From a phage: DNA of 64,000 nucleotides. Positions 237 to 1,014 of the stretch are shown in pieces (positions within the stretch are counted from its first letter, which is position 1; each line of letters opens with the position of its first letter). Position numbers and translations under genes: made by a program. The stretch is from assembly GCA_022520065.1 (NCBI GenBank), contig GCA_022520065.1_3942.1; one strand, written 5' to 3'. The notes beneath the pieces are model-generated. The model was not told the origin of the DNA, did no database searches, and was given only the letters and a program-made list of their open reading frames with translations.

Positions 237-310
237 ACAGAAGACCAATTACAGCAAACTTAATCTTATTCATCTGAAGGTAAATCGGACAAAGAAGAGA
301 TTTGGTCTGG
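237..310 (+). repeat. Structured repeat module A (CAGAAGACC-N-TACAGCAA ... GGTCTGG)
   Basis: Conserved 5' box cagaagaccaattacagcaa and 3' box ttggtctgg; agaccaa pairs with ttggtct. Confidence 0.55.
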
Positions 311-321
311 TCATTAAGAAT

Positions 322-398
322 TGCGGGTATAGAGAAAGGGCGTCTCACATGTCTCATTAGCATGGTATCGGCAGGTTCGACTCCTGCACCCGCCTCCA
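322..398 (+). tRNA. tRNA with CAT anticodon (Met/fMet/Ile2-type)
   Basis: T-arm gcagg-ttcgact-cctgc, anticodon arm catgt-ctcatta-gcatg, U1:C72-type mismatch at acceptor end; identity among CAT isoacceptors not resolvable by eye. Confidence 0.5.
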
Positions 399-404
399 AA
401 TTTA

Positions 405-464
405 CAGAAGACCGTTTACAGCAACAAAATACTTTTTGCGGATAAAAGAAAAAACACGGTCTGG
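405..464 (+). repeat. Structured repeat module B
   Basis: cagaagaccgtttacagcaa ... acggtctgg; stem agaccgt/acggtct covaries relative to modules A and C. Confidence 0.55.
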
Positions 465-475
465 CAATGTATTAA

Positions 476-552
476 GGTTAGGAAGCACATAAGGTATGTG
501 CGGTCGCCTGTTAAGCGAATGGCACAGGGTTCGAATCCCTGACTAACCGCCA
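476..552 (+). tRNA. tRNA-Asn (anticodon GTT)
   Basis: T-arm caggg-ttcgaat-ccctg, acceptor ggttagg/actaacc (one mismatch), anticodon loop ctgttaa. Confidence 0.55.
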
Positions 553-561
553 AATTTAAAT

Positions 562-649
562 GTGTCGTTATCCCGTAGATGGTAGCGGTGGGGACTGTAA
601 ATCCCTTGTCATTGAGACTCGGTAGGTTCGACTCCTACACGGCACACCA
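562..649 (+). tRNA. tRNA-Tyr (anticodon GTA), long variable arm
   Basis: 88 nt; acceptor gtgtcgt/acggcac, anticodon arm gggga-ctgtaaa-tccct, long variable arm, T-arm gtagg-ttcgact-cctac. Confidence 0.6.
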
Positions 650-654
650 ATAAA

Positions 655-732
655 GGTTATGTAGTTTAATTTGGTTAAAATACTCCCCTGTCACGGGAGA
701 TGATGAGGGTTCAAATCCCTTCGTAACCGCCA
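655..732 (+). tRNA. tRNA-Asp (anticodon GTC)
   Basis: Perfect anticodon arm ctccc-ctgtcac-gggag, T-loop ttcaaat, acceptor ggttatg/cgtaacc. Confidence 0.65.
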
Positions 733-760
733 ATTTTGAGAGGGCTATTTAGCCCCTCCC

Positions 761-790
761 TTAAAGGGTTCTTACGAGTATCCTTTAAAG
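761..790 (+). repeat. Hairpin-box family member (CCTTAAAGG stem, TTCTTRCGAG loop)
   Basis: ccttaaagg-gttcttacgagta-tcctttaaagg; related copies near 1613-1640 and 4108-4133. Confidence 0.45.
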
Positions 791-793
791 GAG

Positions 794-869
794 CAGAAGA
801 CCAAATACAGCAAGAACGTATGATATTTTCAAGCCAATTTAATTTTGAAAAATTTAAAACTTGGTCTGG
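794..869 (+). repeat. Structured repeat module C
   Basis: cagaagaccaaatacagcaa ... ttggtctgg. Confidence 0.55.
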
Positions 870-882
870 CTCAACAAATTTA

Positions 883-1014
883 CAGAAGACCGTTTACAGC
901 AAAACTCAAACAATCTATTTCTCCGGTAAAGAAAAGGCGAAGGTTCGATTCCTTCACTCGGCAGATGTCGAGTTGGTGTAATGGTAGCACTTAAGATGAT
1001 AAACAACGGTCTGG
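883..1014 (+). repeat. Structured repeat module D, enclosing a permuted tRNA-like element (939-990)
   Basis: cagaagaccgtttacagcaa ... acggtctgg; interior carries T-arm gaagg-ttcgatt-ccttc, then acceptor 3' strand actcggc, 4-nt loop, acceptor 5' strand gtcgagt and a D-arm. Confidence 0.5.

What the first reader, a model, noticed from the sequence alone, without database searches (positions are those of the whole stretch)
237..1014. Four-copy repeat family in the tRNA array with compensatory stem covariation
Four inter-tRNA spacers carry the same module: a 20-nt 5' box CAGAAGACC-(N3)-TACAGCAA and a 3' box GGTCTGG, 60-130 nt apart (237-310, 405-464, 794-869, 883-1014). The 7-nt strand inside the 5' box pairs with the strand just before the 3' box, and the variable positions covary: AGACCAA with TTGGTCT in A and C, AGACCGT with ACGGTCT in B and D. 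Covariation that preserves pairing is the classic signature of a selected RNA (or DNA) stem. Related TACAG and GGTCTG boxes recur at 1776-1830, 2240-2250, 2715-2795 and 1110-1137. I do not recognise this family. Possibilities are processing signals for the polycistronic tRNA precursor, small RNAs, or protein-binding sites.
Basis: seen in the sequence. Interest (0 to 1): 0.75.

Follow-up and report, generated by a model that had tools for sequence, protein, structure and literature searches.

The report
Y-RNA-like genes beside phage Ro60
The four repeats are most likely genes for small structured RNAs that partner with a Ro60-type RNA-binding protein encoded just upstream; the same RNA-protein pairing recurs in well over a hundred unrelated phage and prokaryotic loci, and the RNAs closely resemble an orphan RNA class so far thought unique to social amoebae.

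Summary
The box CAGAAGACC-N3-TACAGCAA occurs exactly four times in the window (0.28 expected), each time with a 7-bp stem to NNGGTCT, and positions 6-7 covary.

The modules are not tRNA-processing signals. They belong to a large, uncatalogued RNA family: terminal stem of 6-9 bp, then U(A/U)C(A/C)GCAA, then a variable interior. This family sits next to a DUF2828/vWA gene in Felix O1-like phages and in about 150 distant phage and prokaryotic loci.

- Within 500 nt of that gene: 74 modules on its strand versus 2 opposite in one collection; 56 versus 0 in another.
- Copy D carries a circularly permuted tRNA-like domain (V, T, capped acceptor, D), as bacterial YrlA does. Rfam YrlA matches such modules in relatives below its cut-off.

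Best reading: Y-RNA-like partners of the phage Ro60 homologue, a reported counter-defence protein whose RNAs were unknown.

Unexpectedly, motif, termini (AAG...CUG), stem and size also match Dictyostelium Class I RNAs. That link is unproven; it fails Rfam's threshold.

The parts
13..42 (+). sigma-70-like promoter (TTGACA-18-TAAAGT, TG-extended) heading the array that contains the modules
   Evidence: 10 of 12 matches; a consensus match only, not proof of function
238..310 (+). Module A (73 nt). 5' strand AGACCAA 242-248; motif TACAGCAA 250-257; variable interior; 3' strand TTGGTCT 302-308; GG 309-310. Lies between tRNA-Glu and tRNA-Met.
   Evidence: weak Rfam Class I RNA hit at 243-309, 19.7 bits
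405..464 (+). Module B (60 nt). 5' strand AGACCGT 409-415; motif 417-424; A/U-rich interior with a CGG-containing loop; 3' strand ACGGTCT 456-462; GG 463-464. Lies between tRNA-Met and tRNA-Asn.
   Evidence: Rfam Class I RNA hit at 410-463, 23.9 bits, E 0.074
794..869 (+). Module C (76 nt). 5' strand AGACCAA 798-804; motif 806-813; interior TTTTCAAGCCAATTTAATTTTGAAAA; 3' strand TTGGTCT 861-867; GG 868-869.
883..1014 (+). Module D (132 nt), the YrlA-like member. 5' strand AGACCGT 887-893; motif 895-902; 3' strand ACGGTCT 1006-1012; GG 1013-1014. It encloses a circularly permuted tRNA-like domain.
918..934 (+). D: V hairpin (TTTCT CCGGTAA AGAAA)
   Evidence: Paired in 85% of cells; misaligned in the Mooglevirus-type copies, which have CTTTC AGGGTAT GAGAG instead
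939..955 (+). D: T-arm mimic (GAAGG TTCGATT CCTTC)
   Evidence: 98.8% paired, nearly invariant; partial Rfam tRNA hit at 894-956
956..973 (+). D: acceptor-like stem closed by a loop (ACTCGGC-AGAT-GTCGAGT)
   Evidence: 3 of 7 pairs changed on both sides; 99.2% paired across three sequence versions (ACTCGGC/GTCGAGT, ACACGTT/GGCGTGT, ACCCTTC/GAAGGGT)
976..990 (+). D: D-arm mimic (GTGT AATGGTA GCAC, with the GG of the D loop)
   Evidence: invariant, 100% paired

Best explanation
The four modules are genes for paralogous small non-coding RNAs of about 60-130 nt, made from the + strand together with the phage tRNAs. They are the Y-RNA-type partners of the phage's Ro60 homologue (a 471-aa DUF2828/DUF7788-vWA protein, gp130 in phage Bas63). 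In relatives that gene ends about 100 nt before window position 1.

Each RNA has a terminal 7-bp stem joining its 5' and 3' ends. Directly after the 5' strand comes a single-stranded UACAGCAA motif in an asymmetric internal loop. Together these are inferred to form the docking site for the Ro60-like ring. The distal part differs between paralogues and is inferred to choose the second partner. A-C carry simple A/U-rich hairpins. D carries a permuted tRNA mimic (V hairpin, T arm, capped acceptor stem, D arm), as bacterial YrlA does.

By analogy with Rsr/Y RNA/PNPase complexes and with Thermus phage phiLo Ro60, the RNPs would tether or sequester host RNA-handling enzymes during infection, as part of the counter-defence role reported for gp130.

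Shown here: repeat, stem, covariation, strand, tRNA-like anatomy, Ro60 fold of the neighbouring protein, and the statistical gene-RNA association. Inferred: expression, release by tRNA-processing enzymes, binding to the protein, and the downstream effector.
For: (1) Anatomy. The stem is found by MFE folding in all four copies. In D the order V-T-AS-D matches the published YrlA description, with 3 of 7 compensatory pairs in the capped acceptor stem.
(3) Association. In phages whose protein is only 38-53% identical, modules of the same design but with different stem sequences cluster beside the gene.
- 75 IMG/VR loci: 121 modules on the gene strand against 29 opposite; 74 against 2 within 500 nt of the gene; 81 distinct stems.
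- 80 prokaryotic assembly loci: 88 against 21; 51 against 0 within 500 nt upstream.
- Control: 16 of 27 motifs have a Watson-Crick stem of at least 7 bp anchored at the motif, against 4% at random anchor positions.
(4) In L049 the modules sit next to the gene with no adjacent tRNA array.
(5) Rfam YrlA matches the tRNA-like modules in four distant loci: 40.9, 42.1, 39.2 and 26.7 bits, E down to 4e-6.
(6) Strand. Many G.U pairs on the + strand would be A.C mismatches on the other strand.
(7) Precedent. Phage phiLo Ro60 binds two adjacent Y-RNA-like RNAs and host PNPase. Bas63 gp130 is Ro60-like, sits upstream of the tRNAs and counters the Ppl defence; its Y RNAs were only guessed at.
Against: - No expression, end-mapping or binding data exist for these RNAs.
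- The protein's relation to Ro60 rests on fold only. Single-sequence and profile searches against PDB sequences find no Ro60, and Pfam TROVE is not hit.
- The canonical Y RNA / YrlA motif (GNCGAAN0-1G, or CGAA) is absent.
- Rfam YrlA does not hit window copy D even at E<=10, and its hits in relatives are all below the gathering score of 69.
- The interiors of B and C give no RNAalifold consensus helix.
- Some loci have the gene but no module within the flanks fetched: L048; 17 of 75 IMG/VR loci; 41 of 80 genome loci lack a proximal one.
- The Ro60-like gene is not in the window itself. Its adjacency is inferred from relatives with 94-97% identical DNA.
Confidence: 0.72

Rival explanations
1. 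The modules are structured ncRNAs under selection, but their partner is not the Ro60-like protein. They might be decoys or sponges for host tRNA-targeting nucleases or tRNA-modifying enzymes, or bind another protein such as an RRM protein (as reported for Class I RNA). The linkage to the DUF2828 gene would then reflect co-regulation only.
For: Copy D mimics tRNA and the modules are embedded among tRNAs. In Dictyostelium the only protein shown to bind the look-alike Class I RNA directly is the RRM protein Rnp1A/CIBP. No binding data exist for the phage protein.
Against: The tight, strand-specific clustering within 500 nt of the DUF2828 gene across hundreds of unrelated loci, with or without tRNAs nearby, is what is seen for Ro60 and Y RNAs. 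The part conserved across all copies is a terminal stem plus a loop motif, the classic Ro60-binding layout.
Confidence: 0.14
2. The modules are cis-acting processing or spacing signals for maturation of the polycistronic tRNA precursor (RNase P/E/III sites), with no life of their own as RNAs.
For: They lie in inter-tRNA spacers on the tRNA strand downstream of one promoter. A 7-bp stem is acceptor-stem sized.
Against: Most tRNAs in the array are separated by 1-10 nt with no such module. Homologous modules occur away from tRNAs (L049). Modules C and D are adjacent to each other, not to tRNAs. D holds a whole tRNA-like domain with compensatory changes. The invariant single-stranded 8-mer is not a known RNase P/E/III determinant (own knowledge).
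Confidence: 0.06
3. The modules are decaying or rearranged tRNA genes, or recombination scars left by turnover of the tRNA array. Copy D would be a tandem-duplicated or permuted tRNA remnant.
For: D contains T-arm, D-arm and acceptor-like sequences and gets a partial Rfam tRNA hit. In L012 the D module is fused at its T loop to the 3' part of tRNA-Lys, so T-loop recombination does occur.
Against: All helices of D are kept by compensatory changes across three genera. The acceptor stem is capped with no CCA end. The same permuted design recurs in unrelated phages and matches the YrlA model. A-C have no tRNA-like sequence.
Confidence: 0.03
4. The modules are miniature mobile elements (MITE-like) or target or recognition sites of the HNH homing endonucleases that populate these tRNA arrays. 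The conserved ends would be terminal inverted repeats acting at the DNA level.
For: Conserved ends with variable interiors. The A position holds two unrelated interiors in different phages. HNH endonuclease genes are inserted nearby in some relatives.
Against: Positions are syntenic, orientation is always that of the gene, and there are no target-site duplications. In distant phages each copy has its own stem sequence, so there is no common inverted repeat for a transposase. The invariant motif is on one side only. G.U pairing is strand-specific.
Confidence: 0.03

Closest known systems
Bacterial YrlA / Y RNAs bound by Rsr (Ro60 orthologue); Rfam RF02553; Chen et al. 2014 (PMC4201824)
   Same: Encoded next to a Ro60-fold protein. 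The 5' and 3' ends pair in a stem with a conserved motif beside the 5' strand. One paralogue (D) has a tRNA-like domain in the same permuted order: V hairpin, T arm, capped acceptor stem, D arm. Shorter paralogues without the tRNA mimic coexist, as YrlB does. The Rfam model scores related modules at 26-42 bits.
   Different: The partner protein is the DUF2828/DUF7788 branch, not Pfam TROVE. The motif is UACAGCAA, not GNCGAAN0-1G. There are four or more copies embedded in a tRNA array. No hit reaches the gathering score, and window copy D is not hit at all.
Yrl1/Yrl2 of Thermus phage phiLo with phage Ro60 (PMC12135203)
   Same: A phage-encoded Ro60-fold protein with several small stem/internal-loop/stem RNAs encoded beside it. 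Binding to the protein and to host PNPase was shown experimentally there.
   Different: phiLo Ro60 is a canonical TROVE protein, and its RNAs were picked by a CGAA motif. There is no tRNA array, no UACAGCAA motif and no tRNA-like member.
Dictyostelium Class I RNAs (Rfam RF01414; Kjellin et al. 2021, PMC7919456)
   Same: About 60 nt. A 6-8 bp terminal stem conserved in structure but not sequence. The motif (CC)UUACAGCAA lies immediately 3' of the 5' strand, with the same near-invariant C6, C9, A10, A11. Conserved ends are AAG...CUG(U). The remainder is variable and there are many paralogues. RF01414 is the only non-tRNA Rfam family that hits the short modules (window A and B, and two in L045).
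   Different: Class I RNAs are eukaryotic, transcribed from their own DUSE promoters, and reported as unique to dictyostelids. Their only proven binder is an RRM protein. The phage hits are far below the gathering score (19.7-26.8 against 41.5), and 12 other loci give no hit. Stems in prokaryotic copies are usually 7-9 bp. Some phage members carry tRNA-like inserts. Homology versus convergence is untested.
Bas63 gp130, the Ro60-like counter of the Ppl defence (PhageMaP preprint, PMC11482910)
   Same: It is the orthologous protein of a Felixounavirus, in the same position directly upstream of the tRNA genes. The authors predicted that Y RNAs should exist in the array.
   Different: They suggested that some annotated tRNA genes might be the Y RNAs. 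The candidates found here are the unannotated inter-tRNA spacers.

Membership tests
Y RNA / YrlA (Rfam RF02553) | Encoded adjacent to a Ro60 (TROVE + vWA) orthologue | tested here: inconclusive
Y RNA / YrlA (Rfam RF02553) | 5' and 3' ends pair in a stem next to a large internal loop | tested here: met
   7-bp closing stem in all four copies; covarying in distant phages
Y RNA / YrlA (Rfam RF02553) | Motif GNCGAAN0-1G (CGAA) near the 5' end | tested here: not met
   Read directly from the sequence: the conserved motif is U(A/U)C(A/C)GCAA. No CGAA is conserved.
Y RNA / YrlA (Rfam RF02553) | tRNA-like domain with V, T, capped acceptor (AS) and D stem-loops in that order | tested here: met
   Met for copy D only (compared with the description). 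A-C lack it, as YrlB-type RNAs do.
Y RNA / YrlA (Rfam RF02553) | Scores at or above the Rfam gathering threshold (69 bits) | tested here: not met
   No hit in window 230-1165 at E<=10. Related modules score 40.9, 42.1, 39.2, 26.7 and 25.8 bits.
Y RNA / YrlA (Rfam RF02553) | Physically bound by the Ro60 protein | not testable with these tools
   Needs EMSA or RIP.
Dictyostelium Class I RNA (Rfam RF01414) | Length 42-65 nt (median about 60) | tested here: inconclusive
   B is 60 nt; A is 73, C is 76, D is 132. In other loci the median is 65-85 nt, with about half at 70 nt or less.
Dictyostelium Class I RNA (Rfam RF01414) | Short terminal stem joining the 5' and 3' ends; structure but not sequence conserved | tested here: met
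   7 bp here, 6-9 bp elsewhere; 81 and 60 distinct stem sequences; shuffle control
Dictyostelium Class I RNA (Rfam RF01414) | 11-nt motif next to the 5' strand with T3, C6, C9, A10, A11 near-invariant (consensus CCUUACAGCAA) | tested here: met
A is AATTACAGCAA, B and D are GTTTACAGCAA, C is AAATACAGCAA (T3 replaced by A in C). Across 87 modules T4, C6, G8, C9, A10 and A11 are invariant, in part because the search pattern required them.
Dictyostelium Class I RNA (Rfam RF01414) | Conserved termini AAG ... CUGU, with G paired to C | tested here: met
   Window copies read A-AGACC...GGUCU-GG. AAG at the 5' junction in 52% and 73% of modules (background about 10%). CTG at the 3' junction in 57% and 34% (background 5-7%).
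Dictyostelium Class I RNA (Rfam RF01414) | Scores at or above the Rfam gathering threshold (41.5 bits) | tested here: not met
   19.7 and 23.9 bits in the window; 26.3 and 26.8 in L045; no hit at E<=10 or E<=1 in 12 other loci
Dictyostelium Class I RNA (Rfam RF01414) | DUSE promoter about 60 nt upstream; dictyostelid host | tested here: not met
   Phage genome with a sigma-70-like promoter

The most novel reading that the evidence does not exclude
The phage and prokaryotic modules and the dictyostelid Class I RNAs are one RNA class: AAG, stem, UUACAGCAA, variable part, stem, CUG(U). Its conserved partner is the DUF2828 branch of the Ro60 family. Class I RNAs would then be a divergent kind of Y RNA. 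The 'unknown function' protein DDB_G0281243 that co-purified with Class I RNA DdR-21, or another dictyostelid DUF2828 protein, would be their Ro60-like partner. The class would not be unique to social amoebae but widespread in viruses, and possibly in plants, where an Arabidopsis candidate with the same design was dismissed.
Probability: 0.4. Interest if true: 0.92.

Novelty: new variant of a known kind. Interest (0 to 1): 0.82.

Why it matters
1. It supplies concrete, testable candidates for the missing RNA partners of a phage Ro60 homologue that has been reported to counter a bacterial defence system (Ppl). The published guess was that some annotated tRNAs play this role.
2. It defines a large RNA family that Rfam does not detect at its curated thresholds. 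More than 200 copies were seen here beside DUF2828 genes in very diverse phages and prokaryotic assemblies. This extends the Ro60/Y RNA partnership to a protein family still labelled 'domain of unknown function'.
3. The stem-plus-UACAGCAA unit appears to be portable. It is found at the ends of simple hairpin RNAs, at the ends of permuted tRNA mimics, and as a capped insert inside otherwise ordinary tRNA-like genes. That offers a natural system for studying how Ro60-type rings are directed to tRNA-like cargo.
4. If the resemblance to Dictyostelium Class I RNAs reflects a shared partner, a 20-year-old orphan RNA class thought to be tied to amoebal multicellularity gets a molecular hypothesis that a single pull-down or domain look-up could test.

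Tried and rejected
- Rfam at gathering thresholds finds only tRNAs in the window.
- Rfam YrlA gives no hit on window copy D.
- The neighbouring protein against PDB sequences, as a single sequence and as a profile, gives nothing relevant. NCBIfam also gives nothing.
- RNAalifold on orthologues of B and C supports only the closing stem, with no covariation inside the Felix O1 group.
- The Rfam Class I model on 12 further loci gives no hits. I do not claim Class I membership.
- The AlphaFold-database fold library, needed to look for a Dictyostelium DUF2828 protein, was unavailable.
- Avesson 2011 and Aspegren 2004 are not held. DDB_G0281243 appears in no other held paper and not in the supplements.
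- The DUF2828 literature is uninformative.
- I considered copy D as a true permuted tRNA gene of the Cyanidioschyzon type and rejected it: the acceptor stem is capped by a loop, there is no CCA, and there is no bulge-helix-bulge motif.
- I considered HDV-like or other self-cleaving ribozymes next to tRNAs. No Rfam ribozyme hit appeared at E<=10, and the interiors are too variable.
- I considered integron attC-like or CRISPR-repeat mimics and found no sequence resemblance.
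Full report
**The observation**

The window opens with a tRNA array: 26 tRNAs at 69-5216 on the + strand. It belongs to a Felix O1-like myovirus (Felixounavirus), with 329 related GenBank phage records, many 94-97% identical over the first 3.1 kb. The box CAGAAGACCNNNTACAGCAA occurs at 238, 405, 794 and 883 and nowhere else in the 64 kb, even with three mismatches allowed. 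Chance expectation is 0.28, and 0 of 100 shuffles reached four. Each box is followed by NNGGTCTGG, whose first seven bases pair perfectly with AGACCNN. Minimum-free-energy folding recovers that stem in every copy. The additional 'related boxes' (1110-1137, 1776-1830, 2240-2250, 2715-2795) do not carry the motif and are not members. Two further motif-plus-stem matches in the window lie inside long ORFs and are chance.

**Anatomy**

Across 36 IMG/VR contigs and GenBank phages of three genera (Felixounavirus, Mooglevirus, Suspvirus), the two boxes are almost invariant while the interiors diverge strongly. The A position even carries two unrelated interiors.

Copy D is special. Inside the closing stem it has, in order:
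- a hairpin (918-934);
- a perfect T-arm mimic, GAAGG-TTCGATT-CCTTC (939-955);
- a 7-bp stem closed by a short loop (956-973);
- a D-arm mimic, GTGT-AATGGTA-GCAC (976-990).

The capped stem exists in three sequence versions that all pair: ACTCGGC/GTCGAGT, ACACGTT/GGCGTGT and ACCCTTC/GAAGGGT. On a 17-sequence alignment, 3 of its 7 pairs changed on both sides and 99% of cells are paired. The whole structure is 96.6% paired, against 43-50% when partners are slid. Numerous G.U pairs on the + strand would be A.C mismatches on the other strand, so the folded molecule is + sense, like the tRNAs. D is thus a circularly permuted tRNA mimic with a capped acceptor stem. This is the V-T-AS-D layout described for bacterial YrlA, the tRNA-like Y RNA.

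For B and C, RNAalifold supports only the closing stem. Their A/U-rich interiors yield no consensus helix.

**Context**

In every relative examined, the gene directly upstream of the array, on the same strand, is a 471-aa protein annotated 'RNA-binding protein' or hypothetical. It ends about 100 nt before the position matching window base 1. It is not elsewhere in the window. It matches Pfam DUF7788 (2e-43), DUF2828 (1e-28) and, weakly, a vWA domain, and PHROG 850.

Sequence and profile searches find no solved relative. Fold comparison does:
- An AlphaFold2 model from a 34-sequence alignment is confident (pLDDT 87.5, pTM 0.88).
- Foldseek's twelve best PDB hits are all full-length Ro60/TROVE structures, E 2e-8 to 2e-6, followed by a roughly thousand-fold gap to vWA-only hits.

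The neighbour is therefore a Ro60 structural homologue of a divergent sequence family.

**Association test**

If the modules are this protein's RNAs, they should follow the gene in distant genomes.

They do. In a Yersinia phage (protein 53% identical), two uncultured large phages (48-51%), Vibrio phage phi-pp2 (46%) and another contig (41%), the DNA beside the gene holds several copies of the same design: a 6-9 bp stem of unrelated sequence (GGACTGT/ACAGTCC, AGAAGCT/AGCTTCT, AGGATGTT/AACATCCT and others), then 0-2 nt, then T[AT]C[AC]GCAA, then either a simple hairpin or a V-T-AS-D tRNA mimic. Orthologous modules in L045 and L047 differ by a compensatory change (AGAAGCT/AGCTTCT against AGTAGCT/AGCTACT). 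In L049 the modules sit immediately upstream of the gene with no tRNA array beside them, so they track the gene, not tRNAs. One locus (L048) has none within 8 kb.

Because the 3' strands were found by searching for complementarity, I ran controls. 16 of 27 motif occurrences have a Watson-Crick-only stem of at least 7 bp anchored at the motif, against 4% for random anchor positions.

| Collection | Motifs, gene strand / opposite | Modules, gene strand / opposite | Within 500 nt of gene, gene strand / opposite |
|---|---|---|---|
| 75 unselected IMG/VR loci, 38-47% identity | 194 / 110 (108 expected) | 121 / 29 | 74 / 2 |
| 80 bacterial and archaeal assembly loci, 33-42% identity | 155 / 84 | 88 / 21 | 51 / 0 upstream |

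The IMG/VR modules use 81 distinct stem sequences. This is strong, replicated evidence of a functional gene-RNA pair, and of selection on pairing rather than on stem sequence.

**Relation to Y RNAs**

Rfam's YrlA model does not hit window copy D. It does match the tRNA-like modules of four distant loci at 40.9, 42.1, 39.2 and 26.7 bits, with E down to 4e-6, all below the gathering score of 69. The canonical Ro60-site motif (GNCGAAN0-1G, or CGAA) is replaced here by UACAGCAA.

There is direct precedent for phage Ro60 proteins with adjacent Y-RNA-like RNAs that also engage host PNPase. The PhageMaP preprint reports that gp130 of the Felixounavirus Bas63 is structurally Ro60-like, lies directly upstream of the tRNA genes and counters the Ppl defence system. 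Its authors guessed that 'some tRNA genes ... are possibly Y RNAs'. The inter-tRNA modules found here are much better candidates for those RNAs.

I therefore file them as a new variant of the Y RNA kind, not as members of Rfam YrlA.

**Likely mechanism** (inferred unless stated)

- The array has a sigma-70-like promoter at 13-42. The modules are probably co-transcribed with the tRNAs and freed when RNase P and the 3'-processing enzymes release the flanking tRNAs.
- The terminal stem and the adjacent single-stranded UACAGCAA would form the docking site for the Ro60-like ring.
- The variable distal part would select a second partner. In D that part is a tRNA mimic.
- By analogy with Rsr/Y RNA/PNPase and with phiLo Ro60, the complex would tether or sequester host RNA-processing or RNA-repair enzymes during infection.

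**An unexpected resemblance**

The only non-tRNA Rfam family that repeatedly hits the short modules is Dictyostelium Class I RNA (RF01414):
- window B: 23.9 bits, E 0.074 in a 936-nt search;
- window A: 19.7 bits;
- two modules in L045: 26.8 and 26.3 bits, E about 0.01.

The model consensus reads GaUcuC-CUUACAGCAAUuaAAac...GagAuC-UG, which is the same motif in the same place. Published defining features of Class I RNAs are:
- about 60 nt;
- a 6-bp terminal stem conserved in structure but not sequence;
- an 11-nt motif next to the 5' strand, with T3, C6, C9, A10, A11 near-invariant;
- conserved ends AAG...CUGU;
- a variable remainder and many paralogues.

The class is reported as unique to dictyostelids and its function is unknown.

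The prokaryotic modules share the motif and the stem logic. They also share the termini. AAG lies at the 5' junction in 52% and 73% of modules (background about 10%). CTG lies at the 3' junction in 57% and 34% (background 5-7%), often as CTGT. The window copies read A-AGACC...GGUCU-GG.

Against membership: all hits are far below the gathering score of 41.5, and 12 further loci give no hit at all.

Three further leads:
- The pull-down with Class I RNA DdR-21 recovered, besides the RRM protein CIBP, a protein of unknown function (DDB_G0281243) conserved in all Dictyostelia.
- DUF2828 also occurs in eukaryotes and giant viruses.
- The Class I authors' own outgroup scan found an Arabidopsis candidate of the same design, GTTTTC-ATTACAGCAA...GAAAAC-TG at 40 bits, which they dismissed.

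I could not obtain the Dictyostelium protein or an AlphaFold-database search. The link therefore stays a hypothesis, which I rate at about 0.4.

**Verdict**

The finding is real and considerably more interesting than a local repeat. It is the window's share of a widespread RNA family, not detected by Rfam at its curated thresholds, that accompanies a divergent Ro60 homologue. It gives concrete candidates for the RNA partners of a reported phage counter-defence protein. It may also connect to an orphan eukaryotic RNA class. No expression or binding data exist yet, and both Rfam membership tests fail at curated thresholds. The functional reading is therefore well supported by comparative evidence but remains inference.

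Noticed in passing
window 1015-1163: A separate structured RNA of about 145 nt lies directly after module D. It is closed by a long stem (TTATCTTTGTAGATAAG ... CTTATCTACAAAGGTAA) and conserved in Felixounavirus, Mooglevirus and Suspvirus. 6 of 30 predicted pairs changed on both sides. It matches no Rfam family.
   Followed up: partly
L045:10569-10678 and L049:7601-7715: These are unpermuted tRNA-like genes (Rfam tRNA 47-48 bits) that carry a capped copy of the stem plus TACAGCA motif inserted between the D arm and the anticodon arm. The design is the same as module D, but the free ends are at the acceptor stem; the L045 copy ends in CCA. They may be chargeable tRNA/Y-RNA chimeras.
   Followed up: partly
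window 1866-1940: A tRNA-like sequence with a CCA (Trp) anticodon-like loop and a T arm that ARAGORN does not call (Rfam tRNA-Sec model, 23 bits). It is either an unusual tRNA-Trp or a pseudogene. The array otherwise lacks tRNA-Trp.
   Followed up: no
window 2209-2306 and 2711-2806: Two more long spacers fold into extended hairpins. The first gives weak miRNA-precursor-like Rfam hits. The second has a closing stem AGAGGTC/GACCTCT and an internal GAAGACCGT that resembles half of the 5' box. Neither has the TACAGCAA motif.
   Followed up: no
L012:5544 onward (IMG/VR relative): Module D is truncated at its T loop and fused to the 3' part of the downstream tRNA-Lys. This looks like a deletion by recombination between T loops that removed the capped stem, the D arm, element E and the 5' part of the tRNA.
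   Followed up: no
A position in relatives (for example L021:3167, L022:6615, L014, L004:7631): At the same site, and with the same boxes, some phages carry a completely different interior (…CTTTTCGCGCATAGAAAAC…) instead of the window's …CATCTGAAGGTAAATCGGAC…. This suggests cassette-like exchange of the variable part.
   Followed up: partly
L049:14225-17138; L045 and L047 upstream genes: Genes near the Ro60-like gene in distant phages include an RNA ligase plus a polynucleotide kinase/phosphatase (an RNA repair pair) and NAD-salvage enzymes (NAPRTase, PRPP synthetase). This fits an RNA-damage or counter-defence neighbourhood.
   Followed up: no
L039:2170, L040:1683, L041:1627, L043:1625 (inside the Ro60-like gene): The coding sequence of the Ro60-like gene itself contains GATTACAGCAAG, encoding the conserved D-Y-S-K. 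In FO1a it reads GACTACAGTAAG, so this is probably a coincidence of codon choice rather than an autoregulatory site.
   Followed up: partly
Supplement 7 of bioRxiv 10.1101/2020.04.05.026054: The Class I RNA authors' outgroup scan lists an Arabidopsis candidate (40 bits) and a Capsaspora candidate (25.8 bits) with stem plus (A/C)TTACAGCAA plus a 3' stem and TG. These were dismissed as too few. Plants encode DUF2828 proteins.
   Followed up: no
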